From contig CM120640.1 in the NCBI GenBank assembly GCA_051362555.1, positions 15,748,001-15,812,000 on the forward strand: 64,000 nucleotides of DNA, in the 5' to 3' direction. The position numbers and the translations under genes were made by a program. Position 1 is the stretch's first letter. Each line of letters starts with the position of its first letter. This DNA comes from Lingula anatina. Lineage: Eukaryota; Animalia; Brachiopoda. The notes beneath the pieces are model-generated. The model did no database searches and was not told the origin of the DNA. It worked only from the letters and a program-made list of their open reading frames with translations. Below are positions 6,234 to 51,361 of this stretch, piece after piece.

Positions 6234-7606
6234 TTACTCCCCTGAGAGATGCATCTCCTCTAAAGTGAGGCGTGAATTACCACGGTAACCAAGATAGATA
6301 TTTGTGTTGCTTGAATATCCGACATCTGAACATGTGTTTTCAGCATGCAATGAAATAACCACATCCCCAGACTGTAGACCTTTACAGATGCCGTCAACTG
6401 GAAGTCAAGAGATACATATTAGCAAACTTTTTAAAAATAAACTACAGGAACTGTAATGGTTAAGATAGTACTTACAGTCCTTTTATCTCATTATGATAGA
6501 AAAGTTTACCTTAAGAGGCTGATTTGCATTAATTATGTTAGGATCCTGTGTGGTTATACTGGGCATGTAGATTAAAGTAGTAATGTTTTAAAAAACAATT
6601 GGATTCAGACCGAGTTATTTCATTAAAATAGTTTTATCTGTACTGTTTTAGGACAGGATTAATAAGCGCATTTCGTTTGCTATCAAGGTTCAAGAACTTA
6701 CTTGCATGGGTCCTGTGATAGTTTTGATAACTATTTGTGTACAGCCGAACGTACACACTAGCTGGGTCGGTACACAAAGCCCCATTAAATTTAAAGAAGA
6801 GCTTGCCACAGAAATCATCTCCAATTCCAATGGGACCAACCCACTTCACGTGAAGTGTACTGACGGAAGATTTCTTACTGTAGGTGGCGCTCTGGAACAT
6901 GACAGGAAGTGTCTGTGCAGCCATGAGGATCATTCAACAGTCTTAGGCTCTGTTCTCACAACTTTTAGATCGATCTATCACCGCGGGGAGTCTCACTAGA
7001 TTACTGTCAGATAATCCCCCTTAAGTTTCCGTCCCCGCCTACTACAAGCTTTAAGGGGTAATTAACTTTCGTGTCCGCCCGGCTGACAGCTATTTAGCGT
7101 GAACCCCCAGGGAGTTAGGTCGATCCAATGTAGGTCGATCTAATCTATGAGAATGGGGTGTTAAACACATACAAAACCCCAAATATAAAATGTACCCAAT
7201 TAATAATGGCATATGAGCTTTTTGTTAATATTATTCAATCTTAAGGCACAAACCAATTAGTTTTTATAATTATTGTTACTGTTGTAATGTTTATGAAATA
7301 CATTGGTGTTGGTCTCTCAAAAATACCACATTCATCATGTACCAAAATCAGTGCTTGATCTTTTGTAGACTAAATCATAATGTGAACAGCACCAACAGTG
7401 TTTTTGATACCTGCAACTCTCCTTGATTAGTATTTATCTGCAGTATGTCCCAATAAAACTGCTGGATGTTAAAAATGGGAACCTGGTACATGACACCATC
7501 TGAACCCATGACTGAAATAATAATAATAATAATATACAGGGTGGTTCATAAAAAAATGATCACTTGCCATTATAATTCAAAATAAGTCGTTTTTATGGAC
7601 CAACCT

Positions 7607-7657
<51 letters not shown>

Positions 7658-10600
7658 CAGTTCTATCTGGTTGTGTGCCACAGTGTTGCAGCTGATATAT
7701 TTTGGACTGGAAAGGTGATAAGTAAACCCAGGTATAGTGTAACTTTCACCAGATACTCTACACATGGATCTTTTGTCATGGTTTAAAATCCATTCTTGTC
7801 AGGGTTCAAGTCAAAAGTATAAACGTAAATGGTTTCTGTAAATTTACGTTCTGAAAAACAGACCACCCTTTCTTCACTCACTGACTCTGCAACGGGGTTA
7901 GTTTTAAGTAGTCATGTGCATTTTGAAAGACTACTAAGCTATAGTCTCAGCAAATTGAAGAAGTCTTTCTTTAATATTTTGTTAATCAGTTATATTATAT
8001 TGACACATTTAAACTAATATTACATACAAAAGGCATGTAGAAAGCATATATTTTATTTTTGTAACATTATAAATATAATTCAAGCATATTCTATAAAACT
8101 TAGTGAATATTTTACTTACAAGCATCAATATCATGTCCCATACGTATTTCTTCCACCATAAACCTGGAAACAGCCAACCATCCTGTGTTTGCCTCTCCAG
8201 TTTCCACCTCATTCACACTGCTGCGACTTTCACCAATCAACAGACGGATGCGGACTTTGCCTGCTGGGATTCCCTCACAGATACCTTCCACTAAGAATGA
8301 TGAAACCAAAACTATATCAACCTTTTGTTCACTTAAATTCCAAGCATTTTGCCAAAGAGCAAATAACTATGTATTATTACGTAATAAACATTATTCATCA
8401 TTACTCAACTGAAATTATATTTTGTGCCATTTCAAATAGGCTACAATAATGATTATGTGATTGCAATTTTAAGAAAATGTTCAATTTGATCATATGAAAT
8501 TATAGTTGGCACAAGATTTAAAAGTATATACATTTTTCTTAACAGGCCACTCCAGGGGATTTTCCTGCCAAAATAAATTTTCCTGGAGCAAAGAGCAATT
8601 ACCTCTTACTCGTGAATTATTGCTTGACCGATCCCTGAACTTGAAATCCATGTTTTATTCCATAATTTAATACTAAAGTTTTATGTGATTGCATGACCAG
8701 TCAAAGTAACGACATCTGCCATGGAACGGTTAATCTTATGATAATTTTCAATAAGCAAAATCCACTACCAAGTCCTGTTCTGGTGTCAGCTTCGACTGAA
8801 CTTCCAGCAAACTGTGCCACAACGCCCTCTATTGGTGTTTGATAACATTCCTTCGTGGAAAATGTCACATACCTAAAGTAAAAAAACTTGCCATTAGACA
8901 AATGTAAGCTAAGTAACATGCATATGTTTTGCATCATTACTTTTTGCTTGGACAAATAAAACATTTAAAACATTTTATTTGTCCAAGTTTTCTGTCATTG
9001 TTGAATTCCTTTACAACTTCATCACAACAGTGTATGTTGAAATGACAGTCTTTGTGAATATTCCCTCTTCCAGAATGACTTAGCCAAACTGCAAATGTGA
9101 AAGGGGTTTATGTTGATATAATTTTTTTAAATAATTTTCATTTATAAGTATATATTATCTAAATCATGCTTTTAAAAAACATACCATCTTTTACTTGTGT
9201 CTCCCTTCAGCCACATTGTTCCTTCCCACTTCACTCGTACTGCAGTGTCTTCCTCACGCTTCACATAGTCAACCCACTGATATAAAGAATTTGTGACAAT
9301 TTTTATAATGCTGCTGATGTTATACAGATTTTTGGAATTAGCCATTGCCAAAAAAGATGCAGGTTTATTGTAAAGATGCAGCTTTATTTTAAAACTTATT
9401 AATTATGCAACACTTCACTTATTGTTTTTTCATGATTATTTGGCTAAGACTTGGTTCCCATACCTAGATCTATATAACAGGATCGGTTTATCTCCAAGGG
9501 GTTTCTCACTAAATTGCTTTCAGCTTAAGCAGTTTAGATGTCTGGCACGCCTACTGAAGCTGCTAAACGATAATGAATATTACCCCCTAGCAGCTTCAGT
9601 AGGCATGACAGGCATCTAAGCCACTTAAATTGATTACAATTTAGCTAGAATCCCCATTAATAATAGATCGATCCACAGTTAGTACGATAAGGTCTGGGAA
9701 TTGTCCATAAGTTTAATATTAAAAAATCTATCATGCTTACTGCAAGTTCCACATCTCCAGTGTTATCCCCTTTGTTCAAGTTGTGCACTGTGTGTTGCTG
9801 CACATTGAAGACAGAATGTGCTTCACAGGGACTTGGGATAGAGGTCTCTGAAAAAGGAATAAAATTCAACAAATAATTATTTCTACTTTTCATTATTGCT
9901 ATTTTTGCTTGAAATACTTTTTCTTATGTTTCATTTAGTTACTTTTACTATTTTTGAGAAATGTCTTTTGTATTCACTAACAAAAGGCATTTCTCAAAAT
10001 GTCTTTTGTACTCACTAACAAAAAGGAAGAATAATTATGGCTGTCAAAGTTAACATTATTTTTGGGGTTAATTTATATAAAGATATCTGAATTAGAAAGC
10101 TTTAACCAAAAACAAGTGTTTCTGAATAATTCTGGAAAAAGATACCAAAACCAATATGTGCTACAGTAAAGGACTCATGATAGGAAATATATACCTCCAC
10201 AAATATCTTCCTTGTGGGACAGGATATTATGTTGCACTGCTGTGTCCAGAATTTCTTGCCATGATAGGACATTCCCTTTCAGTTCAGACTGACATGTCTG
10301 TCCCATGGCAGTAATATCTAGTACTTTATCCCATACATTGACTCCAGTCAGATACCCAACATATGCTTGTGAAGTGGAAAAACATCCACCCACACAGTCT
10401 TGGTCTTGACCTATGACCCAGGTTCCACCTCCTAACACGCAGAGAAAAAATATTGGATACAACAATTGTCAATAAAAAAAAACAATTAAGACAGGAAGTC
10501 TCAGTAAAACCACCCAGCACTGTCAGACCAAAACAGATTCAAAATGTGCATGTCTAAATACCAAGGTTATCCCTAATAGTTACAATACAAGTTTTAACCT

Positions 10601-13600
10601 ACATGTATAAATTTACAATCAAAAACATGAATATAATAAATATCAAATTTATATATTTTATAACTATTTATCGATCTCCATTTCAACCACCCTCAAAATC
10701 CCTCCAAATTACAGGTAAATCCAATGCATATAGAAATGTGGTCTGGCTAATGAAACTGCAAATACAATATAATTGTACACTTTGTACTACAGATTGGATT
10801 ACATTTTGATGATACCTACACCATTACTATATCTAAATTATCACAACACTATACTGTAATTACCTTACCACATTCATACGTTCACCCATCACACATTCAC
10901 CAACCCACTGTCATTGTAAGAGAACACTTGTGAAATTTTATCAAAATTATTAATTTCATGAATTGTTTTAGAAGAGTTCCCTGAAAACTAAACACAACTT
11001 TATTGACACTGTTACAGAAGAACTGTACATGATAGCACAAAAAGCTTGGTCAGAAATACTGTGCATTTTTCTTACCTGCAATTGTTGTTCCAGAAGCCAG
11101 CCCTGTGGAAGTTTTAATCAGCAGTCCATCAGAGTAGAGAGCCCATTCACCATTTGCACTCTTCCAGGTCAGACAGATATGGTGCCAGTTGTTATCATTG
11201 GTCATAGTATCAACATCTATAATGTAAAAAGAATTTACATAAAATAACACAAAAATGACTAGAAAAGCACTCCGAGAGCGCAGACCTCCGCCAAGGCAGC
11301 AAAGTCTCCACCCAATGCCGTTTCACCCCTAAATTTTCATTCTATAATGATTTAGTTTTTTGATTATTGATTATTGATTGATTACTGATCTGGATCACCA
11401 CCAAAAACTAATCATCTGTTCCTTGGCCCACTTCTGACAGTTCCTGAATATTTCTTCAAAATCGGTCCATAACTTTTTTTTTTTTTTTTTTGATTATTGA
11501 TCCAGATCACCACAAAAAACTAATCACTTCTAAGTTAACCCATTTCTGACCTACCCTGAAAATTCTATCAAAATTCATCCATAACTTTTTGAGTTATGTT
11601 GATGAGAAACAGACAGACAGACAAACAGGGGTGAAAACATAACCTCCTTGGCGAAGGTAATAATTAAAAGTTATCTATAAGTTAATGAGTTATAATAATG
11701 ATAAAAAGTTTTTCCAATATGTTAGTAATATACATTGTCAAAGTAATAATCTACCATGAATAAGATTTAAAAAACTCTAGCCTACTAAGCCTACTAGAAT
11801 GAAGAAAAAAGGGGCAGCCTATCATACTGTACCACCTATAAATTCTAGATCAACACTGAGGCTTGCCTATTTAAAAGCCACAATTGTGTGTCCTGCAGGC
11901 ACTAATACAGGCCCAAATCTTAATAATATTTTTTTATTGCAAATTTTAATTTATTCTTGACTTGAGAATTCCAAAATAACTTTTTTTAGTACTGTCAACC
12001 TTGATTGCAGTATCTGCATCTGTTTTGTAAGCACAGATATAAAATGTACTAGTAGATTACTTAGTACACACTAGCTTAAATTAATACTTACCAGTATGAG
12101 GACTATTTATGTGGACTCTAATCCCTGCTGAAGCTGCCCTGTACATTATTAAAATGCCATTGTGTGTGTCAGAGTTGGCATATGAGAGAGTCGACAACCA
12201 GGCTGGAAAAATGTGAAACTCGTTTCTCAAAAATTATCTTATTTTGTTTTTCAATAAATTTTATAAATTGTCACCAACATAAAACAGAATGATGCCCATA
12301 CCTTGGACAATTTCACATTGATGGGTTTTAGTCATAGAAACAGTTTGTCATTGCCCCTCAGATCCAACTTAATATGATTTATCTTTTAATATACAGACAT
12401 AGATGTGTCTGTACATATGGCGGTCACCTGCATCTCGTCGCCATCCTCGTTGTTGTTGTTGTTGCCGTCATCTCGTCGCTAACTTTGCTGTGTGCTTTCA
12501 ATGTTATAACAATTAGTGGAAAACAGTTTGGCCTTTTGTTCTCAAATGTACAGAACAGATGAATATCTATATAATATAGGTTTAGTTCAAAAACCAGCTT
12601 GATCTGACCGTTTTTCTAAAAGTAAGTTTTTTTCACCGTATTTTATCCACCATTATACATAAAATGAAAACCATTTTACCTTTTTTTTTTTTTCAAATTT
12701 ACAGAACTGATGGATATTCATGAAATACAAGTCAAGTTAAAAAATCAGCTTGATTGGACTATTTTTCCAAAACCTATGCAGAGTACCCCCTGTCTACACT
12801 GTATGACATTTTCTTATTTGCCTCAGGCAGTAGATGGTCTATTTTGTGACCTGATCCCTACTGCCAGCAAGTTTTACAATGTTAGCAATTTTGAAATGCA
12901 ACAATCAGTATGTGACGGTGCCTGTAAAATTGGATCTGTATTCAATTACCAGAAAATTATAACTTATAAATTATAAGCTTACTTTGAATACTATATTATT
13001 ATAGTCGTAACTTCACGTCACTGCAGTGAGTTAAATAATTATATATATATTCTGTGCCACCTACTTGAACTGTCGTAGTAATCACTCCTTCCCCAGTAAC
13101 ATGCAGTGAATTCAGTCAAGTCTGGAGTTGCATGGTTGGACAAAATGGCATACTTGCTTGTGCTCAAACTACGCCATTGCCAGACTGTCCGTGGTGGAAT
13201 GCTCTCATAGCGATGGAAATCTTTCCCTGAAATAGAGAGTATTCTTAAAAACTGATATTGAACAAATTCTCCCTACTTCTCACTACAATTTTTACTTGTG
13301 GAAAAGAGAATCTTTGGATATTTAGGGAAATGGGATAAAATTCTCACACCATCTCACAAACCACATTGTAGAAATGTCAATCTGAGTTTCAGAGGACACT
13401 TTACACTCGCCTCTCACACCTTATCTACAGGACTGATATATGTATAGGTAGTAGACAGCTTGAAGTGAGTTTTCATTTGTCCTCTGTAAACTCACAGTGA
13501 GGAATATTGAGCTAACCTTAAGAATTTATTGTATTATCTGCTAATCTAAGTTTCAATCACTCTTTATTATTCAAAATCATGCATCTTTTTTACCTGGATA

Positions 13601-16197
13601 AATTTTGGTGTCCACATAACAGTTTGTGCCACAGCTGGTATCTATGATGGCACACTGGATGTTCTTTGGATAGCACATGGAGTTGGATTTGTCGTAGTAG
13701 AAAGATTTGCAATCTTTCATGGCACTGCAGGTCCAAATGCATTCCTCATAGGTAGATGATACTGCGGCATTTGAAATGTCACCCCCAGCACAAGAGCCAT
13801 ATCTTCACAGATAATACTTTCCTGTTCTAACTAGGCTTGAGTGCTTCACATATGTCCATCCACTTCCAGATGGACAGGAATATCCTTTCCCTATAGTATA
13901 ATATATAACTGTTGTAACTTTCACTTTTGCTTTATACTTATTTGTATCTTTATGTTCAAACCTATATTATTGCACGAGAAAAAAATGTGAAATATATATA
14001 CCTGGATATTTTAAAGCTTAATTTGCTCTTTTATGTAAAAAAACACGTTAATTAAAAATACTGTAATATTTATACATTTGGAGTATGTATCAGGGAAATC
14101 AGGGAAAAAACTTGCTGCAACCAAATGGGTAATTAAAAGAAGGGCAAAAATTCAAAGAACTACAAAGAGAACATTATATAAGGCCCTTTTTACATAAGGT
14201 GGTACATTTACTTGGTATATACTGAACAGCACTGGTCCCCTTTGAGAGGTAGACACTTTGATACTCTGACAATTTATGATATTGTAATATACTTGCCTAT
14301 ATACTATATACAAAAATATCAAAATTCAAATTTTGATCTAGATGCTATACCAACCCTTAAAAAAAATTCCTATAGGACAGCCTTTAGGACTTTATGGGAC
14401 TCGACAGGAATTCCCTGACATGTCCTATTGGATTCTTATCTAGAACAAATGTCCAATAGGACTCTGTAGGATTTTGGGCTTTGGGACCATATAGGAAATT
14501 TTGTTAGGGATTTCTCAAGTAGGGCCTGGTAAAAAAAGGTATAAAAAGCTCCAATTTTTCAGAAAAAGACCACCTTGAAATTACTGACTATAGGTCTGAA
14601 AATGAATACACTATTGGTGTACCTACTCCAGCACTTGTTTGAGTAAGCTTGATACATAGCAAGCCTGCATTCTCCTGTGAGTCGGCATTGGCTTTCACAC
14701 TCATCCACTCCAGAAACTATACGATAATGTACAGTGCCAAGGTCATTACCACCACAGTCTGCCTCTTTCCACTCACCATAGGAGGACATCAGCACTGAGT
14801 AGAAAATGGAAATTACCTTAACTTAACATGTTTGATTTGTATAGACATTACAAATATTTTTTTACATGACAGATCTGTAAATGACAGAAATGTTATTGGT
14901 CAAATATTCAACATTTGGTATTCATTTTGAAATTTCTGTATTTTGAAATATTAGCAAACATTTCTAATTATATGATATAAAATAAGTTTCCATGTCTAGT
15001 TGATTTGAAACTTATCAAATCATTTTCAAATATGAAAATGAAAGTGCATGCTCAAAATGGTTTCATGGGCCTGCTGCATAGATAATGCCTCATCTTGCAG
15101 CTTCATAAAAAAAATTCAGGATGCTTTCCAGAATCTTTCACAGGATGCTTGCAAATCATTGTTAACATCATAATTTTGAACAGTATGACTTGTATTTCCT
15201 CACCTAGGCAATTTCCCCATCTTCCATCTAAATCATAATTGGTTGTGGTGGCACACCATGGCTGGTTATGGTTCACAGTGATACAAGAATGGTACACAGT
15301 GTCCTGATAGATGAATGGTAGGACACATGTCATACCCTCAGAATTCCCACCAAATGTCTTCCTGATTGGATCTGAAATAGAAAAATATATATGCAGCTAA
15401 CACCGAAATTATATGACATTAATCTAATTTCTCACAAACTGTAAAATACCACTTTGGGTATTTTATAATTGATATAAACAATTAATTAAAATAATATTCA
15501 TATCCTAAGATAAGCTTAGAAGGGGGCAGTCAACAGACATTCGGGAATGATCGTGACCGGGGCACTTGGCACGAGATAAAATTTAGAAATGCCTTTGAAG
15601 GCTAGGGCGGATAATGGTGATCCAGGAAACATGGTGACTGAGTTGGGGCAAAGCCTGAGACAAAAGGACTGCACTCAGTCAAGTGTTATTTCTTCCTGGT
15701 TATTAAAATTCCTGAATGATCTATAAAGGCTGCCCTGCTCTGGTGATATCATTATACATTTTGGACTGACAGTTACTATGTAGAAGAAACCTCTGTATAT
15801 TTTCCAAAAGACAGTATTAAATTTCCACTTGTGTCAAATGAGAATCTTGTTCGTTTTATTGGATCAGCTGGGCGCACAACACTAAGGCCCAAGAACCGGC
15901 GCGTTATCTAACGTGACATTATTTTCACGTAAAGTCTGACTGACGAAGTCTGGGACTTAACAAAACGGTCAGTTGAAGAGATTTGTTACAAAGAGATTTT
16001 TTCAAATTCATTTTTTCAATTTGTCATCATTTCAGTCAAAAAAAATCTTTCACCATATCATTTAGGATTATCATGCACATAATACTACTTCAGTTACTAC
16101 TTCTGCTAATAATAATGATAATAATGAAAATAACAATAATGGAATGAGCAGCATTTATAACAATAATAATAATATTATTATATTTATTTTGAGTACA

Positions 16198-16267
<70 letters not shown>

Positions 16268-19118
16268 TAAAAGTAAAAAATCCAAGATTTTGCTTATAGC
16301 ATTATTTAGTTTGAAACATGAATGAAAAAATGTGAATGAAAGTTTACCTATAAAATACTTCTCAAGCATCCACCTATCATTGTTTGAAGTTGGGCTTTCA
16401 CAAGATTTAGTTTTAAGCCAACAGTGGTGACTGCTAGGAGCATATGCTATAGATTTACACTCTGGTTTCATGTTACATCTATCTATGCAGTCCTGGACAC
16501 TGGTCAGATAGCCATTTGTTCCTTGAAGATCATTCCCTCCACAGTCAGATCCTGTCCGGACAGCATATAATGACTCAGAAACTGAAAAATATAAAATACA
16601 TCATGCCAAGAATTCATTTACTTTGCAAGATTGGCGATACTGGTTGAATATATCTATAATCTGCAGGATGAAAATAAAAGCCTATTTTCATTGTCCAAAA
16701 ATCTTTACCATGGAATTTCAATGTTATAAAACAGTAACACTGTATGTATTGCTATTATGGATCCCTGGCAAATACAGTTCTCCTGAACCTCAGATTAGTG
16801 TTTCGACATTTTGTTTTTGGAACATAGGAAGGTGGGTACGTGGGAGTTGAGGGACAAGATATCTTCTGGACCCCCCCCCCCCAATCTGTCATTGATACAT
16901 GGAGACTCACTTATACAGTATCCCCATAGTCCTCCTGCTGTGTAGCACCAGGGATGGGCATAACTATTACCATCAGCTATACACTGGTAGTGAGAGGCTC
17001 CACTGAAAAATATTTCATATAGCAAATAATAGAATATCCATCATAACAAGTAGGGTGCTTATAAAGTGTATAAACGGTCATTTCAATCTAGAAGGAAAGC
17101 TTTATGCACAGCATAAATATATAACATTGTCACGGCATTACCATATTAAGTTTCACAGTAAGTTAGTTACCTCCATATATTATAAGTGGTACCGGAGGAG
17201 ATCAGCATTGGTCAGAATTGTGCCGGAAGTGACGTGTAGTGGTGTAAGACATAAAGCTGAGTGGTCATTTTTAGCTGGAGGTGAATGGGAATGAAGACGT
17301 GGGCTTGGAGAAAAAAGCAGTTATTCTAACAAAACGGTAAGATAACATTTTATCTTTAGCTCAGATAGGCTCTCAGAATGTCACCTTTGTCTTGGCATTT
17401 GTCACTGATTAGTGCTTACTCCGGTGTAAAAGGTGTATTAGTGTGATCTTATGTGTGGAATTTCATGTCAGATGGACATATAAAGATCTAAAAATTCGTC
17501 ACAATATTAAAAAAAAAGATATATCTTTGCACAGCAGTCTAGATCAGTATGATTCAGTTGCTAGTTCCAAACTACTTCCTGGTTTTCACAAGGTCCTTCA
17601 AGAATTCTAAAACATCATTATAATTGCAGCACATACCATAAAACACCCCAAAATACTTAGATATGGACATATCAGATTACATAAAAATGTCAAAATTCCA
17701 CATGACAATGATTTATAGCCTCCCGGGAATTCTTTTCCCTAAATGCTCTTTGTTGCGCTGGCGGTTGATGCAGCATGTATTTCAAAACAAGTTGTATGCA
17801 AATTATAAGCACGATTTTGCACCTTCAAGTTCCGTGTCACGTTTTCATATCATGTGCCTATCATTTCTACAAGTATTCTCTGCCCAAAATGCATAAAGAA
17901 GAAATGTTATCTTTCCATGTTGTTTGAAAACTGCTTTTTTCTCCGAGTCCATGTCTTCTCTCCCGTTCACCTCCAGCTAAAAATGACCACTCAGCATCAG
18001 TTCTTACACCACTTGACGTCACACTTCCGGCACAATTCTGACCAATGCTGATTTCCTCCGGTACCCCTTATTATAAGCTTCATTGACATATACCAGTAGT
18101 GTTGTTAAAATTAATGTTGTTTTTTAGCCAAAGCATATACCACCTGTTTTGAAATCTGTTACAAGATTGTAAACTAATGGAATGTTAATTTTTCCATTGA
18201 AAGAACTGAAAAGATCAATTCTTAAATTTTACAAATGCACACCTCTAATCCACTTGTAACAAAGTGACTTTGATGATATGACAATGTTGCTAAGTTAAAT
18301 AACCACTTACTTGTAAGTAAATGGGAACTGGCAGATCAACCCGTTAGCATTCCCTCCATATGTATAGATATTTTGTGTGACTGGACCTTTTCCATGACCA
18401 GCAACTGGAAAGAAAACCCCACCAGACTGAGCAACTTTTATCATTGTCCAATGCATTGAAAGTACTAGCAATATCATCATGTAAAGTCAATTTTCACACA
18501 TATGTGTAGAATCAATGATATACTCAGTATACTCATACCTGTACAGTAGCCCCAAAGTCCATCAGTGTCATAGTCAGCAGTTGTTCCACACCAAGGTCTG
18601 CTCCTGCCTTCCTCGTCCACCAGGCACAAGTACTGTTGTTGACCTGTAAAATCATGTCATTTAATCAAATTTTAAAAAAACATATTTGTTTAGGCATTTT
18701 TAACTTACCATAATACCAGTAGGTGGATCTGAGTAAATATAAATAACCTCAGGAAATATTACTCATCCCCAGCATTTATCTAACCCCATAAAATACAATG
18801 CAATCTTTGTCATTAACTATTTTGAATGTAGCTTGCAATAAAGTGAAGTTTTTTTTTCACCTCACATCTTACCATTGTATGTAAAAGGCCAGTAGCAGGC
18901 AGCCCCACCAGAATTGCCTCCAGTAGTTGGAATCATTACATCTAAAAACCAAGTAAAGAGGAAGATGATCACCCATAGACAAGTTTTCAATTTATATACA
19001 AAAAAAAAAAAAAGCCTGACTGCAGTGGAATCTTCCAGTGAAGCACCATGGTATTTTGGGTTTAATGTCATGGAAACATTTAAAAAAAATCAAGGTATTA
19101 ATCATCCATTAAATCTAT

Positions 19119-19153
<35 letters not shown>

Positions 19154-19997
19154 TAAAAGCTGTTTTTTCCCTGCCTGCTAGCTAGTTCAACTTATTTGAT
19201 GACATTTACAACATTGTGCTATTAATATACCCGTGTCTGAAACAAATGTTTTTCTCACCAAGACAGATGTCCTGATCAGCTGATGTCGATACACTTCCAG
19301 CTTGTAAAATGTTATTTGTTCCATCAAATGCAAAGATATTTCCATAGGTGCTACTGTAACACTGGCCCATTCCATGTGGTTGTAGAACAACATCCCAGAT
19401 ATTGATACGTGTCATGTAGCCCGTAAAAGACTGAGATGCAGAAAAACTTCCACCTTGAAAAGAAAATAAAAAAGGATCCCAATGAAAACTTGATACGAAA
19501 AATTCAGTTTTCTATAGAAACACTGAAACCAAGTAATGAACATGCCATGTTTGAAATAATTTCTTTAAAAAGGAAGGAGGATTTGCTCAAACTTTAATTA
19601 CAGTTTGGGTGAAAACTGCGTACAAATCAACAAAAAATTAGTGTCATTTTGCCTATACCTATGCTGTCCTGGTCCTGCCCCAGTATAATTGTCCCCCCTC
19701 CAGCAATTGTCTGGCCAGTTTGAAATCCAGTCCCACTTCCTGCCTCTCTACTGTCCACATAGACTGCCCAGTAGCCGTCGCTGCTACGCCACATGCCACA
19801 CACCTGGAGACACAGGTAAAAATAGACTGAAGTATTATGTGGGATAAGGTTCTTTTTGCTATTGGTTATTTCAGTCCAAAAGCAAAATTGACACATTGTT
19901 TTATAGTATTTGGTATTGTACAAGCAAGGCTGTAAATTTAGGAGGCCAGTTGAAAAGATGTTTTCATTAAAATGTTTAGATTTTTCTCTGAATACAT

Positions 19998-20043
<46 letters not shown>

Positions 20044-23000
20044 CATGCGATATACATTTGAAATTTTACTTCTCTCAATTTTTGTTTACCTGGTGCCATG
20101 TATTATCAGTTAGTGAGTTCCAACTGGCATCAGCATTTGTGTCCAACACGCTAAGACGGATTTTTCCATCTGATCGAATCCATATCATTAAAGCATTATT
20201 TGCTGCACTATTGGCATAGGAGAAAGTTCCCATAGCTGTCTGTGCATAGCTGGACATTTTTTGCCAGTAGCATACGGTGACTTCAGTTAAGTCAGGAAGA
20301 TTCACAGCTATTGTAGCATAATGAGATGTACTGGATCCTGGGAAATACAGGGTGGTAAATTTGGGAGATTGGTTTGGAAGGTCGAGGTTCCTTGCTGAAA
20401 GCAAACAGTATGTAGACATTGTAAATTAATGTTGCCAACTTGTAAACTTGTGTAATAATAAAATGATAATAATAGTTTATTAAACTCCTAAGGTTCATTG
20501 TCACATTTGCAACTAGTAGAAGTCAATACTTGTTTTTAAACAGATCATAATTTAAGTATATGTGTGTGATTTTAAGCAGGTACAAATACTTTAAGTTTTA
20601 ATTCTTTAACAAATATTATATAAAGTTAACTTATCTATTCAATTGAATTAAAATAAAAAAAAGCATTGCTACTGTACATATAAAAATGGGCTACTTTTAA
20701 AATCAATGAAATTAATTCAACAAAATCCAATTTTTTAATTCGATTTTTAATTTTCTATTCTTTAATTTCAAGTTTTTTTTTCAAACTTACATTGTCTGCT
20801 ATATCTGGTGTCAACTTCTTGAACCATAAGGGCAGATTCTGCGCTCCAACCAATAAAGCCATTAGATAGAGGGAAACCAAAACATTTCCCAGTGTGAAAC
20901 TGAATGGTTACATCTCCAGCAGGAATGCCCTCACACATACCATCCACTGCAATGATGGAAGCAATGATATATACACACATACATGCACAAACACACACAC
21001 ACACACACACACACACAATACAATACAATACAATACAATACAATACAATACAATACAATTATTAGGTCATTTGAGCTGAATGAGTGTCAAATAATATATT
21101 AGTTAGCAAACTGCTAATTAGTAACCTATTTTTGCCAAGTTGAACGCACATGCACCAAGAACAAACCAAGCTACCATTTTTTTGGTATGATGTGCTGCAG
21201 CTTTAAAATGAAAAGGGTTTCTTACATTACAGTCACTTTTAAATAATAAGAATAACTCAGTAAATTCAATTTAATTATTTTTAAAACCTCACAATTTGCT
21301 GGTCTGTGCAAATCCCTAGCACTAGCATCATGGTGCATAAACTCAATGGTGTCTGGATTACCACACTCCATATTGTTGAACTTGAAGTACCATCTGGAAA
21401 ATAAGATGATTGGCAACTTGGAAAGGACTTGTTACTTGGTGTAATGTTAAAGTATATGCCTTCCTAAAATATTAATCAACCTTGCATGAAAATCAATACC
21501 TGACAATTTCATTACTCCTGTGATACATGTACATAACTTACTGACATTGTACATATGGCAGTATTCAAGAAATCAATAACACTGGATATGAGTATTTTTA
21601 ATCATGTGTAAAGTTATCCAATGTGTGTGAGAAACAATATCTTTAAGGGAAGGGATTATATCTCAGAAAGAAAACAAACATTTTTAAGATATATGGAATC
21701 TGCTTAACAAATATTGAGCTTATTCATAACACTATATTGGCAATTTTTTGGGGGTAATAATAATGCCAGGTAGCACTGGCTTTCACCAGTACATAAAATA
21801 TTTTTCAAAAGCTAGTGGTAATTAATTTCACTAAATGGAAAATAATTTATCCTTTTTCAAAGCCCATCCCTGATATAAAATTTTTCGGATTGAATTTTTT
21901 CAAGCTTCATACTTCCGTTTATTAACAATTTTGCTTATTTATTTATATTTGTGAAACAAACCCTGGTTTGATCACATTGCCTCATACCTGACATAAGCTT
22001 CCCCAGTGGCCTTTCTAGCTGTTACAAAATTGTATGGAGGAATCTTATAACAGCTGGAAGGGCCTTCAGTAGAGAGCATACCTGACACACGCTCCTGCAT
22101 TATTATATGGTCCTCTCAGGTTACCTATCCACTGGACTCTGAGGGCAGTAAAGTTATGCTTCTTTGGAAATGTTACTTCCTTGAAAAGAAAAAAATAAGC
22201 AGCATGCCTCAATGTCCTCCATGGGAATGTTGTTGTATATTACAATGGCATATTTACAGGTATTTTATTTTTTTAAAATTAGAATAAACATGGCAATTGA
22301 AAAAAAACATCACCAATGTAAACTGACTTAGTATATTTGTATATTAAATTTATTTAAAGTAATAAATTAAGAAAAGAATTACCTTAAGTACAAGCAGAAA
22401 TGCCAGGCATTTTTTTACCCTGCCCCCCCCCCCCCCCCTCAAATCTTGGTTTCGAAAATTCGAAGGCGAATGGTGACCTGATCAAATTATGTCCTTTACA
22501 CCATGTCCAATAGAAAATATATTTTTTTCTTCCTTTTTTACCGTTATAAGTCCCTGTCCAACATTATCGTGATTTGTGTTCAGTACTCCAAGGTGATAAT
22601 AGCGCAGGTTATCTACAGGGACTTCGGGGCATTTCGTGTTGTCACCTGAAGTGGAAAGATGGCAATGATCGAATTAACCCGCACTTACAGTTTTAATAAA
22701 ATAATTACTTATAATCTAATTATTAAATGTCGTTATTCTTGTGTCAATCGATTTGACTACTCATCGATGGCTTGATCGACCCCCTGTCCCCCTCCCCCCT
22801 TTATCAAAAAAAATTTAAAGGAAATCATTAGTCTCAATAATTGATTGATCCTAAACAAATTGTTATGGGTTTTGTTTACCGTACATGAATCTGATATTGT
22901 GTTCACTTATCAAGTAACTATCAGAGGTATGTTTGAGGAAGACTGCTCTTACCTAAGATCTAATAATTAGATCTTAGCTCTTACCAACACAATACACTTC

Positions 23001-25017
23001 GTTTCCATCACATGAATCGCGGCATTTCCCGTTCGAGCATCTGCCTGGTCCACAGTTGGTTGACGGCGGACCCGCAAAGTCAGGGTTCACGGGGTTCTCG
23101 TCCTGGCAGAAAAGGACCAACATGCATGGATTAAATTTTATATGCAGTTTCATTTATCCACTTTTATCTATTTATTTGCATGGGGGAATTGTCGTTTACC
23201 CCGGGAAAATCCGTTTTATGGCGTTTTTCCTGCCGAAATGAAGAGTAACTATCCTTTTAATTTTAGAGGAAAAAAAAAACACAAATGAAACAACAAATGC
23301 CAACGTATGCCAAAGATTATGCCACTTCTCTTCGATCATCAAAACTAGAGGAACAGTATTTTTGCTTTAATGAACTTTCAAGAACATCATAAGTGACCTT
23401 CAGCTGAAATTTTAAATAATTGACGAGACATGAAATGTTGAAATGCGCTTTAAATTTGTTACTTGCACACAATTTTTTTCTTTTTGGTAACGATGGAATA
23501 TTCCACAAGCAAGAGCTACATGCATTTCGTTTGGTGCAATCGTACATTTACCGTCAGGAGAACAGTAAAGGAAAGTTGCTGCTCATTAAAGCCGCAGCAA
23601 CAGTTTAAATGTCCGGCTACGATATTGTATTCTGATAATTTGGAACGGAAATCAACAGCAGATAAATGATTTGTTTGACTGTATTGGTTAGAAGCATAAT
23701 AGTTTCTTATAACAAAATTGATCGTCAAGTAAAAGAATCAATATACACTATTGGTCAAGGGGTTGTCCAACCTCCAGTTCCCTGTACTTTTATTTGCAAA
23801 ATGAAATGACCACCTCACCGGTGTCAAATGTTTTAAACAGACGCACATGATATTGCCCACGTGACCTTTAACGAGCACATCCTAATGCTAATTGTGTGTA
23901 AATTTGGTGACATTTGGTGTTGTCTTTTCAATCTAATGGACATTTTTTACCTCTATGAAAATCACAGTGAAACATCAGATTTGAGGGGGTATGTTATTAA
24001 TTTGAATAAACGGTATAAAATATGGATATCTTCACCACTATTTTGTATTTTCTGTACCATTAAGCATGTTAGATATGGTATCTGGAATAAAAAGCACTGT
24101 CTATAACAATTTATACCTGTAAGCTAGGTGATCATATGTAAATAAATGCACATGGAATTGGAAATGGGACAACCCCTTTAACCAATGGTGTAAATGACAT
24201 TGAATTCGAATTACGACCTAAAGGAAACCCAATTATCAACAACACATATTGCACCTCCAGGGTGTATCAGTCTTTTGTTTTAACTTACCCCTGAGGGTCT
24301 GACGTGAATCAGATATATCTCAGAATCTCCCGAGGTGTCGCCGCCGTCAAAATTCACGCTGTTAAATAGCGAGTCCGAAAGAAGGTGGCACTCTCTGGCC
24401 GTCTGGTTGAACATGGCGCTCTCACATCCAACATTTTGGAGGCATTTTAGACTACAGTGCCCTGTGGTTTGTGCATCCTCGGTCAGCAACTCGAAGGTGG
24501 AATTCAGGACTATGACAAAAAGCACATTTTCAAAATGATATTTTACTACAGAAATACAGGCACCGTTTTTCCATTTTCACATAATCGCTAAACTACAGTG
24601 TACACTTTACTATACCACAATGGGTTTTTTATATCTATTTTTATTCATTAATTAATTTATAATTAGCTGATAAATTATTTCGTTATTTCTAAAATTTATT
24701 TATTCATATATATGTGCACCGCTGCAGAAAGGTTTAGTCGGATCAAATGGTGGATAACACCGCAGTGCTCGTGAACTAAATATATCCAAATATTTTTTCG
24801 GAGTGTTAGAAAAAATTCCAAGAACCAATCTTATACTACAAATTTGATCTTAATCAAATTTTAATGAGGATAATTGCTCCAAACCTGCAGTAGCGGCTGG
24901 CAGTACGTTGATGTAGGAGGACGTCAAGGCGTTAGCTGGACACGATGTTATAGCATTATAGCTGAATGCAATATCCATCAGCACCGTTAACAGCGACAAC
25001 AGCAGTAGCAGTGCCAT
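6234..25017 (-). CDS. Secreted multidomain protein (PAN/Apple x4, EGF-like, CTHRC1 C-terminal x3, pentraxin x2, FN2 x3); 30 exons, one internal TGA (possible null allele or young pseudogene)
   Basis: Phase-consistent GT-AG exons: 25017-24885, 24545-24289, 23102-22985, 22645-22542, 22179-22082, 21393-21293, 20946-20791, 20394-20090, 19803-19659, 19453-19259, 18941-18873, 18643-18539, 18404-18311, 17002-16911, 16581-16348, 15371-15204, 14794-14623, 14265-14212, 13961-13594, 13226-13065, 12202-12092, 11216-11076, 10431-10195, 9847-9741, 9276-9185, 8872-8769, 8290-8120, 7511-7411, 6891-6702, 6397-6234. They total 4548 nt = 1516 codons including the stop. The protein starts MALLLLLSLLTVLMDIAFS (signal peptide) and ends EEMHLSGE*. 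No transmembrane segment is evident. Confidence 0.88.
6946..7160. mobile_element. PIF/Harbinger-like MITE (family M), intronic
   Basis: Imperfect TIRs with internal TAGATCGATC motifs and TTA on both sides. Homologous to the copies at 9448, 29307, 31083, 42608, 43680 and 45534. Confidence 0.75.
9448..9707. mobile_element. Harbinger-like MITE family M
   Basis: GACTTGGTTCCCATACCTAGATC...GGTCTGGGAATTGTCCA flanked by TAA/TAA; close to the 31083 copy. Confidence 0.7.
11258..11662 (-). mobile_element. MER6/HINE-like non-autonomous Helentron element, family B
   Basis: ACTAGAAAAGCACTCCGAGAGCGCAGACCTCCGCCAAGG at one end; (CAGA)n microsatellite and AACCTCCTTGGCGAAGGTAA (subTIR/IR) at the other; internal ~105-bp duplicated core. 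Confidence 0.7.
12384..12780 (+). mobile_element. Truncated, diverged HINE family A copy
   Basis: TACAGACATAGATGTGTCTGTACATA...CACCTGC and a degenerate GTC/GTT microsatellite, matching 1501-1760. Confidence 0.7.
16199..16262. repeat. (TA)n microsatellite; others at ~7610-7655 (TA), 19999-20038 (CA), 20990-21058 (CA + ATACA), 27935-27975 (ATT)
   Basis: Directly visible simple repeats. Confidence 0.95.
17186..18067. mobile_element. Long-TIR non-autonomous DNA transposon (Kolobok-like termini), intronic
   Basis: ~170-190-bp inverted ends (GGTACCGGAGGAGATCAGCATTGGTCAGAATTGTGCCGGAAGTG... / ...CACTTCCGGCACAATTCTGACCAATGCTGATTTCCTCCGGTACC) flanked by ATAA/TTAT. Superfamily is tentative. Confidence 0.7.
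19259..20394 (-). other. Pentraxin domain copy 1 (exons 8-10)
   Basis: LYFPG...LPDLTEVTVCYW...FSYA...WHQVCGMWRSSDGYWAVYVD...GGTIILGQDQDSIGGSFSASQSFTGYMTRINIWDVVL; HxC signature and Ca-loop GQDQD. Confidence 0.92.
20791..22645 (-). other. CTHRC1 C-terminal domain copy 1 (exons 4-7 of the mosaic gene)
   Basis: EVTFPKKHNFTALRVQWIGNLRG...ACVRWYFKFNNMECGNPDTIE...DLHRPANLDGMCEGIPAGDVTIQFHTGKC...GFIGWSAESALMVQEV matches the CTHRC1 pattern FTK..SALRV...RWYFTFNG.EC..P..IE...IHR...EGLCEGI.AG.V...GW...SRIIIEE. Confidence 0.85.
21983..22087. repeat. 83-bp hairpin insertion flanked by an 11-bp direct repeat that duplicates a splice donor
   Basis: CATACCTGACA at 21983-21993 and 22077-22087; between them GGCCTTTCTAGCTGTTACAAAATT...AATCTTATAACAGCTGGAAGGGCC folds back. 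Confidence 0.7.
23746..24190. mobile_element. Tc1/mariner-type MITE
   Basis: TA|CACTATTGGTCAAGGGGTTGTCC... and ...GGACAACCCCTTTAACCAATGGTG|TA; ~60-bp imperfect TIR and TA TSD. Confidence 0.7.
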
Positions 25018-35570: not shown

Positions 35571-36329
35571 CGACATGTTATATTTTATGGAATTATTGTG
35601 AAAACATGCCAAAATTAGAAATGGAAGTACATCAGTAAACCTTTATCCTGTTTTTTATTTCCAATTGTTACTACTTTGCTGTACTAGAATTATGACACAT
35701 AATTCTATTAAAGACCACTCACTAAATTTTTACAGACAAAATTTAAAAGAAAGCCATTGCACAGAATTTTCCCCATCATGACTATTTCGCATGTAAATCT
35801 TTACTACCACTACTAATTCTACCGATGAAATTAAAAAAAATTGTGTGGTTAACATGAGGCACAACTGCAATTTTCACTGTCATTTGGTACGTTTTGAAAT
35901 AAAGGAGGCATGGAGGACACAAAATACCACGTGGAGACCTACGACGAATCGTGTGACATTCCTAGAGGTTCTTAGAGTTTGTGGTTGGGGCGGAGTTAAC
36001 CCTTTGAAAGATGTTACCTACACATCAAGAAGTTTTTAGAATATGCGCCTAAACACATTGTTTTAACATCTTCATAATGAAAAAAAAAACACTTGCATAA
36101 ACGTAGATTTGATTTATCTGAGGTATAAATCTATCTTGTCAATGGGTGTACCTAATTACCGTCTACAACCGAGCACAACCGACCACTACCGTCCACAAGC
36201 ACTAATTACCGTCCACACAACAGCCCACACGTAATAAATACCGTCCACAAGCGTCCTCCCATATGAAATAGTTGTAAAATCAACTAAAAGATAGAAATTT
36301 AACATAAGATGGTGCTTTTTTTTTTTAAT

Positions 36330-37020
36330 TTCGATGGAAAGGCAGTCTTTTTTTATATGTTGCACTTCCAAATGGGCTAGCCTCTGCATCCAGGATCTGG
36401 ACTAAGCTTCTTAAACCAGTTTTGGCACAATTAAGGTCAAAAGCATACATTTCCAGCATTTACTTGGATGATCTATATTTACAAGGTGAACCTAAGGAAG
36501 CTTGTGAGGAGAATGTTAGAGAAACTGTGCAATTACTATCAAAATTCGGTTTTCTCACTGAACTGTTTGAAGCTGGTCTTAATTACAGTGCCATCTGCAC
36601 TGCAAGATCTGCCTTATCGGCTTTTGTGCAACTGAAAGATTGCTCAGCACTTGGATCTAACCAGCTCATCAAACGTTTCATTAAAGGTGTATTTCACAGC
36701 AGACCTTCTTTTCCAGGTACCAAACACATGGGATACAAATATTGTATTAGCATACCTAGAGAAATTATCACCAGATTCAAAACTTTCGGACAAAGATCTA
36801 ACACGCAAACTAGTTATGCTGGTGGCACTGATATCAGGACAAAGATGTCAGTCAATTTATCTCATGAACCTTAAAACAGTGTTAAAAACTGACACAGGAG
36901 TGGCTTTTTTAATTGACGCATTAGTTAAACAGTCTAGGCCAACAAAAGATCAGCCAATCATAAACTTACCAGGTTTCCCAGAGAATAGCAGACTCTGTGT
37001 GTTGAATGTGTTACATGAAT
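36330..37020 (+). pseudogene. DIRS-type retrotransposon relic: RT core fused by internal deletion to the tyrosine recombinase
   Basis: RT: FRWKGS..YVALPNGLASASRIWTKLLKPVLAQLR...IYLDDLYL...LLSKFGF. It runs straight into YR FLTELFEAGLNYSAICTARSALS...LIKRFIKGVFHSRPS, then after a frameshift TWD...LTRKLVMLVALISGQRCQ...KQSRP...RLCVL. Confidence 0.88.
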
Positions 37021-38279
37021 ATTATATGAATATTTTTAACGTTGATCCAACGCAACTATGCCTGTTGGGTTTTGTACAAAAAGAACACCCCCCCCCCCCC
37101 CCCCAAAAAAAAAATGTAGGTCTTTAAAAGAAAAATAGGGGTTAGAGTCAGTAAAATATTTTCAATTGCAACCAAAAAAAGAAAAGTCATTTTTATGTAA
37201 AGCATGCTATCAAAAAAAGAAGGGAAAATATGGATAGGAAATAGAGTCCAAATACAGTAAGTATATTGTTGTAAAGCAAATTACTTACACTTTCACTAAT
37301 TACAGATAACAATTAAAGCGGAATCAAAAGAGTAAAAGGGACAAAGAGTTATTGAGCGTAAGTTAAGTTTCTCCAAGAGTCAACAAGTGTAGAACATGTT
37401 TTTAGTGTCAGATAAAGATGGAAAGGTCAAAGTCAGTAACAGTTAATGTGATTGGTTAATTTCATAACATATTTTAATTTTGATCATCTATTTATCACAT
37501 GATAACTGAGTTTTGGATAAGGGCCAAGCATGAGTAATCCAAATAATATTTTAGATATCTTTAATTGAAAACAAGTATCTTAGGGATTACCTAATAAGGA
37601 AATGTTGCATGGTGACTTGCAACATGCGAATGGAAAATATTTTGTAATCACGCAAAGACAATGGAAAAGAAAACAAGTAAATGCGTGATCAGTACGGAGA
37701 AATTGAGTATAAATATTTGTGAAGTTGTATGAAGAGAGAGTCGGTGAATAAACGTTCGAAAGCTCCAAACTGCTGTCGTTATTTCTCACTATAACAATAT
37801 CTTATTTCAATTCTTATTTCTTAAGATTAAGAAAGATTAAATGTAAAATGTGCTTCAGATATTCAAAGTTATATTAATTATCATAATAGCAGATGTACAT
37901 TGTGGTGGCTTCTACTTTATATAGAGACCCATGCTGTAATAGACCTTTACACATAAGGGTGGCTCGACCCAACCCCCTCTAATGGGCATGAAAGTACATT
38001 TTGTACAACCAAACTTGTTGTGTAAATATCCCCTTTTACGTTTATTTTGCATGAAAAGGCTCCATCACTTCCACACCAGCATTACACTTGTAGAGTTTTT
38101 TTTTCTTTTATTTATCACCAAAATTCTATGAATGGCTTTATTTGTCAAGGAGATCAGTGAAAACCTATTGATTTGGTAAATAGTCCAAACAAGAGACCAA
38201 CAGCCTATAATAATTACCAGAATTTTACCAGATAAAGCAAGCTAGCCAATATACTGATGAGCATCTGCTAGAATGCCAG

Positions 38280-42816: not shown

Positions 42817-43923
42817 TTAGACTACCCTTCTCAGGGACCACGGGATTCAAACTACTTCGCAAAATAAACAAATGGTCAAATTGACAAAGCCTCATTGGTG
42901 TTAACCGTCTGGTTGATTTTATTTAATTGGCTCTTTGGTGTCGTTTTGAGGAATTATATTGGAAACATTCTGTTGATTGTATGTACAATACATGTATTAA
43001 AAGGTAAACCCATCGGACTTTGCTTAGAATAAAATTCATTTTGCCTTTATTGTAAGGGATCCCCTTTGTAATTGTAGTCTTGTATGTGGCCCTAAAGGGA
43101 ATTTCGCACCCCTCCCCCACTCTTATTAACGAAAATACTACTTCTTGGCTAGTGTGAATGTTATTACAAAATACATTCAAAAACGTAGGAAGGTTCATTT
43201 TAGGTAATTCATATCAGAAAACCAATATATTCCGGCGAAATTAACTGACATAGCACGTTAATCTTTCACTTCCGCGATAGGACCGACAGATCTCATTTCT
43301 CGAAAGTGAGGCAATGACACTTATCTATAGGAGACGATTTATAGCCTCTTAACAATTGAATTTTTTAAAATAAAAATCGTGAAATTGGCTAAATCAAAAT
43401 ACATCTTGGTTACTATTGGGATCTTCAGTAATAATACATATAATCACATATAGTAAGAAAACCGCCATATTCGGCCTGTTTGTTAGAAAAATTGATAGTT
43501 TTAGAATATGGAGGCTAAAACCACCAGAGTTGTCTGGTTCTCATATCGAAGCACAATGTTTTGTTCGTATGCTCTCTCTCAGGGAAAATTAAGCATGTAC
43601 AGAATGCTCATGTGCGTAAATAAGCTCCGGATATTGTTGTCGCCATAAAATGCCGTTTGACAACGCCAAACTTCTCTCTGACTGGGTTCCCATGCCTAGA
43701 TCGATCCATCTGGATCGGTCTAACTCCATGGGGAGTCTCACTTAATTAATATCAACTTACCTGCTTAAATGTCTGTCACGCCTACCGAATCAGCCAGGGG
43801 GTGCAGATAATTACCCCCTAACAGCTTTACTAGGCCAGACAGACATTTAAGCCGGTTAAGTTGACAGCAATTTTGTGAGACTCTCCAGGGAGATAGATCG
43901 ATCTAAATATCTGTGGGAATGGT

Positions 43924-44016
<93 letters not shown>

Positions 44017-44021
<5 letters not shown>

Positions 44022-45418: not shown

Positions 45419-45439
45419 TAAGAACGAAAATCGGCCATA

Positions 45440-45537
<98 letters not shown>

Positions 45538-46107: not shown

Positions 46108-46254
46108 TACCTTCTGGGTATGCCCGTGAAACTCGGAGTCGGGGTTAATTGCATGTCTTTTGTTTATTTATTTATTTATCAATTGCAATTGTGTACAAAT
46201 GCTCCGGACTGTTGAGCACTCTGTTCTACACTCACGCTTGGTATATATATATAT
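46108..46254 (+). mobile_element. Inverted partial Penelope pseudo-LTR with a 3' tail
   Basis: Reverse complement of 44017-44102. It begins inside hammerhead stem II, so it lacks CUGACGA, and is extended by ~50 nt of tail ending in (TA)n. Confidence 0.85.

Positions 46255-51330: not shown

Positions 51331-51361
<31 letters not shown>

What the first reader, a model, noticed from the sequence alone, without database searches (positions are those of the whole stretch)
6234..25017. Unfamiliar secreted mosaic protein combining collagen-free CTHRC1 domains with pentraxin, FN2 and PAN modules
Seen: 30 phase-consistent exons give SP-PAN-EGF-CTHRC1_C-PTX-FN2-FN2-PAN-FN2-PAN-PAN-PTX-CTHRC1_C-CTHRC1_C, with no Gly-X-Y repeat and no transmembrane helix. 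Known: CTHRC1_C normally follows a short collagen triple helix in small Wnt/PCP-modulating, repair-associated proteins; pentraxins are Ca-dependent pattern-recognition lectins; FN2 binds gelatin/collagen; PAN binds glycans or proteins. Inference: this could be a lineage-specific extracellular sensor linking damaged-matrix binding and microbial recognition to repair signalling. I do not recognise the architecture from any named gene, and the ORF track shows only fragments of it.
Basis: partly seen in the sequence, partly recalled or inferred. Interest (0 to 1): 0.85.

Follow-up and report, generated by a model that had tools for sequence, protein, structure and literature searches.

The report
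Brachiopod protein with split C1q-like head
This gene, likely from the lamp shell Lingula, encodes a large, likely secreted protein whose three collagen-free CTHRC1 domains are predicted, from shorter relatives, to fold into one C1q-like head, with about 840 residues of likely binding modules inserted between the first two; the copy in this window carries a premature stop codon.

Summary
The architecture is real, with corrections. The minus-strand gene has 29 GT-AG exons, not 30, and reads SP-PAN-Cys-rich-CTHRC1_C-PTX-FN2-FN2-PAN-FN2-PAN-PAN-PTX-CTHRC1_C-CTHRC1_C (1460 codons). EGF is unsupported. A stop-free 30-exon path exists only by bypassing an in-frame TGA at codon 864; window-type contigs in two other DNA runs have CGA there, so this is a nonsense allele or an assembly error. 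An uncharacterised RefSeq Lingula anatina paralogue, XP_013399870, has the same architecture (1102 of 1432 residues identical), and the RNA reads at the two exons tested in one run carry second-copy variants. The gene derives from a SP-PAN-3xCTHRC1_C scaffold (Lingula and one unnamed record) with a 15-exon cassette, phase 1 at every module boundary, between repeats 1 and 2. AlphaFold models of two scaffold proteins match engineered single-chain C1q/adiponectin/TNF trimers (Z about 24), so three repeats likely replace the collagen helix. Best reading: a secreted multivalent binder with a built-in C1q-like head and a looped cassette of binding modules. Whether the split head closes within one chain or links chains is untested. 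A Wnt/repair role is unsupported.

The parts
6234..25017 (-). Whole gene: 29 exons, 4383 coding nt, 1460 codons with one internal stop
   Evidence: 1102 of 1432 aligned residues identical to XP_013399870
24885..25017 (-). Exon 1: start codon and signal-peptide-like hydrophobic N-terminus
   Evidence: hydropathy only; no signal-peptide predictor was available
24289..24509 (-). Exon 2: PAN 1 (scaffold)
   Evidence: Pfam PAN_1 E 1.9e-07
22985..23102 (-).
   Evidence: no Pfam family; Cys spacing shared with P0001 and P0004
20791..22645 (-). CTHRC1_C repeat 1: exons 4-7 (22645-22542, 22179-22082, 21393-21293, 20946-20791)
   Evidence: Pfam PF25815 on exons 5 and 7; profile iE 9e-44
19259..20394 (-). 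Pentraxin 1: exons 8-10 (20394-20090, 19803-19659, 19453-19259); start of the inserted cassette
   Evidence: Pfam Pentaxin on all three exons
16911..18941 (-). FN2 a and b: exons 11-14 (18941-18873, 18643-18539, 18404-18311, 17002-16911)
   Evidence: Pfam fn2 E 8e-11 and 0.0016; paralogue matches the MMP-9/MMP-2/fibronectin FN2 repeats
16348..16581 (-). Exon 15: PAN 2
   Evidence: Pfam PAN_1 E 5e-07
15204..15371 (-). Exon 16: FN2 c
   Evidence: Pfam fn2 E 8e-19
13594..14794 (-). PAN 3 and 4: exons 17 (14794-14627) and 18 (13890-13594)
   Evidence: Pfam PAN; boundaries from the paralogue and RNA depth
13805..13807 (-). In-frame TGA at codon 864; the paralogue and window-type contigs of two other runs have Arg (CGA)
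10195..13226 (-). Pentraxin 2: exons 19-22 (13226-13065, 12202-12092, 11216-11076, 10431-10195); end of the inserted cassette
   Evidence: Pfam Pentaxin on exons 21 and 22; best solved matches are neuronal pentraxins 2 and 1
8120..9847 (-). CTHRC1_C repeat 2: exons 23-26 (9847-9741, 9276-9185, 8872-8769, 8290-8120); keeps 2 of the 4 cysteines of repeats 1 and 3
6234..7511 (-). CTHRC1_C repeat 3 and stop: exons 27-29 (7511-7411, 6891-6702, 6397-6234)

Best explanation
The intact alleles and the paralogue encode a large, likely secreted protein whose three CTHRC1_C repeats are predicted to close into one single-chain C1q/TNF-like head in place of a collagen-driven trimer, and whose inserted pentraxin-FN2-PAN cassette would loop out of that head, so that it likely works as a multivalent binder of glycans and collagenous matrix (an agglutinin or opsonin-like bridge). 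Shown: exon structure, domains, the same architecture in a RefSeq paralogue, the scaffold-plus-insert layout, transcripts of a second copy, and a stop codon in this haplotype. Predicted: the single-chain head, for two scaffold proteins that lack the insert. Inferred: that the head still closes across the insert, the ligands, and the immune or matrix-bridging role. The window haplotype itself would give an 863-residue fragment or be degraded by nonsense-mediated decay.
For: Scaffold family SP-PAN-Cys-3xCTHRC1_C: 6 of 9 hits carry tandem CTHRC1_C, 3 of them PAN plus three repeats. The window's exons 1-7 plus 23-29 align end to end with them at 30-33%. A tree of 22 repeats groups window repeat 1 with repeat 1 of two scaffolds (88/89, below the starred threshold). 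AlphaFold2 of P0002 (pTM 0.75, pLDDT 69) and P0004 (pTM 0.70, pLDDT 67) match single-chain trimers of adiponectin, C1q, Cbln1 and APRIL-BAFF-BAFF at Z 19.6-24.5, rmsd 3.4-4.3 over 341-353 residues; the next hits are at Z 11.5 and 7.4. Single-domain neighbours include the TNF-like lectin PLTL, Pgp3 and BclA. All 9 module boundaries of the cassette are phase-1 introns, as expected of exon shuffling (established knowledge). Repeat 2 lost two cysteines as a pair, which suggests it still folds (inference). Bivalve secreted multi-C1q proteins mostly have three domains (PMC6835236 passages) and one binds LPS and peptidoglycan (PMC10672478 passages). Paralogue identity is very uneven, 39% to 98% by module, as in diversifying recognition proteins.
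Against: The head was never modelled on the mosaic protein: repeat 1 to repeat 3 spans more than the 1200-residue limit. Both models are of modest confidence, from alignments of 9 and 6 sequences, and the four matching single-chain trimers date from 2012-2016, so AlphaFold2 may have learnt that packing. A shared fold shows no function. No ligand, tissue or induction data exist. The uneven divergence may come from old partial gene conversion instead of selection; I lack the paralogue's coding DNA. RNA depth on the exons was low in all 4 RNA runs laid. The RefSeq paralogue model lacks most of exon 25 (3 of 15 aligned residues match, 19 gap columns), which I read as a model error but could not check.
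Confidence: 0.5

Rival explanations
1. Self-assembling matrix component: repeat 1 of one chain completes the head with repeats 2-3 of another, so the protein polymerises head to tail into strings or rings in the shell, pedicle or mucus matrix, with FN2 gripping collagen.
For: About 840 residues between repeats 1 and 2 make closure within one chain less favoured (inference). A 446-aa secreted PAN protein with best hit CTHR1_HUMAN is listed among Lingula shell-matrix proteins (gene 19546, acid-insoluble; PMC4595640 supplementary table 25). Three FN2 repeats resemble the gelatin-binding repeats of MMP-2/9 and fibronectin (the gelatin binding is established knowledge).
Against: That shell hit rests on 1 peptide and is not marked mantle-enriched. 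The same paper's domain table for shell proteins has no fn2, one PAN and one Pentaxin, so the mosaic is not in it. A 2026 Lingula shell proteome supplement has 0 hits for CTHRC1, PF25815, Pentaxin, PF00354 or LOC106166018.
Confidence: 0.2
2. CTHRC1-like signalling modulator: the repeats bind Wnt/Frizzled or TGF-beta pathway receptors and couple damaged-matrix sensing to repair.
For: The repeats are true PF25815 members. A single-chain head could mimic the vertebrate CTHRC1 trimer. PMC7058181 suggests a conserved signalling role for Cthrc1.
Against: The family is defined there as collagen repeat plus C-terminal domain; the collagen is absent. Lingula has 8 canonical Cthrc1 genes. The three repeats are only 27-31% identical to each other, so the head would be asymmetric. 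No functional data outside vertebrates were found.
Confidence: 0.12
3. The window's copy is a decaying duplicate (young pseudogene) and only the paralogue is functional.
For: In-frame TGA 1627 nt before the last junction. All 6 RNA reads laid on exons 17-18 were under 95% alike and those in the variant table carry second-copy variants.
Against: Window-type contigs in runs X3 and X4 have CGA (X1 had no window-type contig listed over the site). There is no frameshift or broken splice site in 29 exons. Reads at 18555 in exon 12 include ones with no other difference from the window in 2 runs (3 and 10 reads), although the paralogue differs at 3 of 35 residues there, which suggests the window-type copy is transcribed.
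Confidence: 0.15

Closest known systems
Lingula anatina LOC106166018 / XP_013399870.1 (uncharacterized protein, 1440 aa)
   Same: Same domains in the same order; 1102 of 1432 aligned residues identical.
   Different: A separate copy: both forms occur together in all 3 DNA runs laid, about 91-92% alike over exons 17-18 with unlike introns. Identity by module runs from 39% (SP-PAN1-Cys) to 98% (FN2 c). It has Arg where the window has TGA. It is a database model only; no paper names it in the library.
SP-PAN-3xCTHRC1_C scaffold proteins (Lingula XP_013395411, XP_013399537; unnamed record P0004)
   Same: PAN and three collagen-free CTHRC1_C repeats, collinear with exons 1-7 and 23-29; two of the three also show the signal-like start and the Cys-rich linker.
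   Different: They lack the 15-exon pentraxin-FN2-PAN cassette; their repeat 1-2 linker is about 10 residues.
Cthrc1 family (PMC7058181; Pfam PF25815)
   Same: Homologous C-terminal domain; predicted C1q-like fold, which that paper also proposed.
   Different: No collagen repeat, three repeats per chain, many extra modules. That paper notes collagen-free Cthrc1-domain proteins in Lingula and Phoronis only in a table footnote; the five accession and name terms searched in its supplement gave no hit for the three scaffold or mosaic accessions.
Bivalve secreted multi-C1q proteins (smultiC1q; e.g. Hyriopsis HcC1qDC5/6)
   Same: Secreted, collagen-free, usually three tandem C1q-fold domains; pattern-recognition activity reported.
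   Different: They use the C1q family proper, not PF25815; no C1q Pfam hit here. No large insert between domains appears in the passages read.
Neuronal pentraxins, CRP and SAP
   Same: Both pentraxin domains match them; the acidic loop aligned with neuronal pentraxin 1/2 is largely kept.
   Different: Two domains embedded in a mosaic chain; ring assembly and calcium binding untested.

Membership tests
Cthrc1 (Leclere et al. 2020 definition) | Cthrc1 C-terminal domain (PF25815) | tested here: met
Cthrc1 (Leclere et al. 2020 definition) | Collagen triple-helix repeat before the domain | tested here: not met
   longest G-X-Y run 2 triplets in window model and paralogue
Cthrc1 (Leclere et al. 2020 definition) | N-terminal signal peptide | tested here: met
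   hydropathy only
Cthrc1 (Leclere et al. 2020 definition) | Wnt/PCP or TGF-beta modulation | not testable with these tools
   needs assays
PAN-3xCTHRC1_C scaffold family (unnamed) | SP-PAN-Cys linker followed by three collinear CTHRC1_C repeats | tested here: met
   end-to-end alignment at 30-33% once the cassette is set aside
PAN-3xCTHRC1_C scaffold family (unnamed) | Repeat-by-repeat descent (1 with 1, 2 with 2, 3 with 3) | tested here: inconclusive
   repeat 1 groups with two scaffold repeat 1s at 88/89; repeats 2 and 3 unresolved; repeats under 95 residues, including the paralogue's broken repeat 2, were left out
C1q/TNF superfamily fold | Jelly-roll protomers packed as a three-fold head | tested here: met
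   predicted for two scaffold relatives only: Z 24.5, rmsd 4.2, 346 aligned; Z 24.2, rmsd 3.4, 343 aligned
C1q/TNF superfamily fold | The head also forms in the mosaic protein, across the insert | not tested
   the complex-prediction queue was full; the span exceeds the single-chain folding limit
C1qDC / smultiC1q | C1q family domain by sequence profile | tested here: not met
   no C1q family among Pfam hits at E 1 per exon or E 0.1 on the paralogue
Pentraxins | Pentaxin domain | tested here: met
Pentraxins | Complete two-calcium site and pentameric ring | tested here: inconclusive
   acidic loop aligns with neuronal pentraxins, but a second acidic position is Ser in both domains (its role as a ligand is recalled); assembly untested
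EGF-like domains | EGF profile match for exon 3 | tested here: not met
   no family for the exon ORF at E 1; no EGF family in homologues

The most novel reading that the evidence does not exclude
A natural split single-chain trimer: the three protomers of a C1q-like head lie on one polypeptide but about 840 residues apart, so the protein either clasps itself into a lariat that displays two pentraxins, three FN2 and three PAN modules, or snaps head to tail into polymers by completing heads between chains. This would be a collagen-free way to build a C1q-like bouquet or a matrix net, and the first animal protein on which the trimer surface and ligand of the CTHRC1 head could be tested as a single chain.
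Probability: 0.3. Interest if true: 0.75.

Novelty: new variant of a known kind. Interest (0 to 1): 0.5.

Why it matters
The CTHRC1 head had no solved structure in the sequence searches run here, although human CTHRC1 is much studied in repair and cancer. Two independent models of natural three-repeat proteins support a C1q/TNF-type trimer and supply single-chain constructs for crystallography and ligand screens. The mosaic shows exon shuffling placing a large cassette inside a predicted trimeric head, an unusual topology that can be tested directly (lariat or polymer). On the other side, lineage-specific extracellular mosaics are common in invertebrates, the architecture already sits in RefSeq, and the function remains inferred.

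Tried and rejected
No genome was held for the window, so copy number and synteny are unknown; no second copy lies in the window. A 63-residue exon query found no long homologue by word search (0 of 4 candidates); the near-length profile search returned only 2 of 5892 candidates and missed known members, so the family's range is not settled. No RNA holder was listed. The whole-gene RNA lay was swamped by intronic repeats; none of the 15 joints shown, of 83, was an intron of this gene. Rejected: the 30-exon stop-free model; a first 29-exon join with the exon 17 donor at 14623, which shifted the frame; simple skipping of the cassette to restore the short scaffold, which creates a stop at the junction; allelism with XP_013399870, since run X3 shows two window-type alleles plus the second form. 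Some second-copy variants (13869/13870, 13629) are in neither the paralogue model nor the RNA reads, so a third copy is possible. The docking test of repeat 1 on repeats 2-3 gave no verdict: the queue was full. Literature searches with no description of this architecture. Gerdol et al. 2018 on the Lingula immune repertoire was seen only as a reference entry and may cover these genes. One search failed on a frame slip and was not repeated.
Full report
Observation. Reading the minus strand gave a chain of exon-sized open frames from 25017 to 6234. My first assembly had 30 GT-AG exons and no internal stop, matching the finding's count and ends. There is no collagen repeat and no hydrophobic segment after the N-terminus.

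A database twin. A profile of CTHRC1_C-repeat proteins found one long relative among 3973 candidates: XP_013399870.1 (LOC106166018), an uncharacterised 1440-residue Lingula anatina model with the same families. It aligns with the window model from end to end. The organism is therefore likely Lingula anatina or a close relative; this is inferred from the named protein and from finding its diagnostic variants in the same DNA runs.

Corrected model. The alignment broke down only at the 54-nt exon 14265-14212. The paralogue instead matches 13890-13594 in full, through a TGA at 13807-13805 where it has Arg. With the exon 17 donor at 14627 and the exon 26 donor at 8120 the gene has 29 exons, 1460 codons, one internal stop at codon 864, and 1102 of 1432 residues identical to the paralogue. 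Laying three DNA runs and one RNA run on 13500-14850 showed: RNA depth over 13592-13913 and 14604-14833 and none over 14190-14281; single-copy contig depth over the false exon; and G at 13807 (CGA) in the window-type contigs of X3 (2 differences over 126 bases) and X4 (a 933-base contig spanning the intron). X1 had no window-type contig listed over the site. So the stop is a CpG-type nonsense allele or an assembly error, not a fixed lesion, and the 30-exon path merely steps round it.

Two or three copies. All 3 DNA runs also hold a second form, about 91-92% alike in these exons with unlike introns. Of 21 variant codons examined, 4 reproduce the paralogue's amino acids in exon 17, 14 are silent, 1 removes the stop and 2 match neither protein, hinting at a third copy. 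The 6 RNA reads were all under 95% alike, and those in the variant table carry second-copy variants. Across the whole gene, four RNA runs gave low depth, mostly on the expected strand in the two runs that look stranded, and the 4 variants listed in exon 24 are all silent. Reads at 18555 with no other difference suggest that the window-type copy is also transcribed, but no splice junction was displayed.

Origin. A search of 1.84 billion representatives with exon 28 gave 9 hits; 6 carry tandem CTHRC1_C and 3 are unrelated repeats. Four are Lingula proteins, one an unnamed record, one a sponge protein with collagen, four repeats and an fn2. Three are PAN-3xCTHRC1_C. Window exons 1-7 plus 23-29 align with these at 30-33% without large gaps. 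The remaining 15 exons (residues 311-1151) sit in the short linker between repeats 1 and 2, and all 9 module boundaries are phase 1 (20 of 28 introns overall). The two pentraxins are 41% identical but share no intron position. The cassette cannot simply be skipped: joining exon 7 to exon 23 makes a stop. The repeat tree is compatible with this history but weakly resolved.

Structure. No CTHRC1 chain was found in the PDB by sequence. AlphaFold2 models of two scaffold proteins have pTM 0.75 and 0.70. Against 48,161 chains, both match four engineered single-chain trimers far above anything else: adiponectin 4dou, C1q 5hzf, Cbln1 5kca and APRIL-BAFF-BAFF 4zch, Z 19.6-24.5 over 341-353 residues, next Z 11.5 and 7.4. 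This suggests why collagen is missing: covalent linkage would do the trimerising. The caveats are shallow alignments, mean pLDDT under 70, and possible training bias. The test on the mosaic itself could not be run.

Mechanism. Most likely (0.5) the secreted chain closes its head and loops out a cassette of binding modules, acting as a multivalent bridge between glycans, microbes and collagenous matrix, much as bivalve three-domain C1q proteins act as pattern-recognition lectins (PMC6835236 and PMC10672478, passages). Paralogue identity varies from 39% to 98% by module (chi-square p 6e-54, exon 25 left out), from selection or old conversion. A polymer-forming matrix role (0.2) draws on a PAN plus CTHRC1-like shell protein seen by one peptide (PMC4595640 supplement part 9 of 24), but the mosaic is not evident in either shell proteome. 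A Wnt/repair role (0.12) rests on the domain name alone. That this copy is decaying (0.15) is argued against by intact alleles.

Known or new. PMC7058181 (parts 1-5 of 8 and supplement passages read) defines Cthrc1 as collagen plus C-terminal domain, proposes the C1q-like fold, and footnotes collagen-free forms in Lingula and Phoronis without describing them in what I read. PMC13425148 was seen as passages, section 8 and a supplement term search; PMC12716839 as passages and was not relevant; PMC5519582 as a listing only. No paper in the library names the accessions or pairs CTHRC1 with brachiopods and shell; subscription papers, including the Lingula immune survey, were not searchable. Two earlier AI notes report three-repeat CTHRC1_C heads in bacteria; they are leads, not support. 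Verdict: a real, lineage-restricted mosaic already modelled in RefSeq, not a Cthrc1 by definition, best seen as a new variant of single-chain C1q-like proteins with an unusual split head. Interest 0.5.

Noticed in passing
window 43350-46195: Near-perfect inverted repeat of about 670 bases (43350-44015 against 46109-45446, 99.4%) around minus-strand ORFs at 44194-45599 that look like a Penelope-type reverse transcriptase and endonuclease (likeness recalled; no Pfam hit at E 0.01).
   Followed up: partly
window 17178-18075: Element of about 900 bases with 183-base terminal inverted repeats (87% alike) inside intron 13 of the gene; MITE-like and covered by repeat-derived RNA reads.
   Followed up: partly
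window 51078-52754 and 62847-64000: Two arrays of a related tandem repeat with a period near 144 bases.
   Followed up: no
window 48319-48972 (+): ORF with a long Thr/Ser/Glu-rich five-residue repeat, mucin-like, probably one exon of an unmodelled gene; no Pfam hit.
   Followed up: partly
window 36329-37127 (+): Fragments of a retroelement: weak RVT_1 match (E 3e-4) and an overlapping ORF that looks like a DIRS-type tyrosine recombinase (recalled; no Pfam hit).
   Followed up: partly
window 54481-57664 (+): Remnant of a Harbinger/PIF-type DNA transposon; DDE_Tnp_4 E 8e-13 at 57326-57661.
   Followed up: partly
window 6953-7166, 9447-9711, 11258-11660, 12378-12757: Intronic repeats heavily covered in all 4 RNA runs (up to several hundred-fold), some with further copies in the window.
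   Followed up: partly
P0005 (Oscarella pearsei, EP00118_P015510): Sponge protein with signal-like start, short collagen, four CTHRC1_C repeats and an fn2 between repeats 2 and 3: a second case of an FN2 module inserted among CTHRC1_C repeats.
   Followed up: partly
P0015 (XP_013399870.1), around residues 1215-1235: The RefSeq model appears to lack the equivalent of window exon 25 (8872-8769), leaving its second CTHRC1_C repeat broken.
   Followed up: partly
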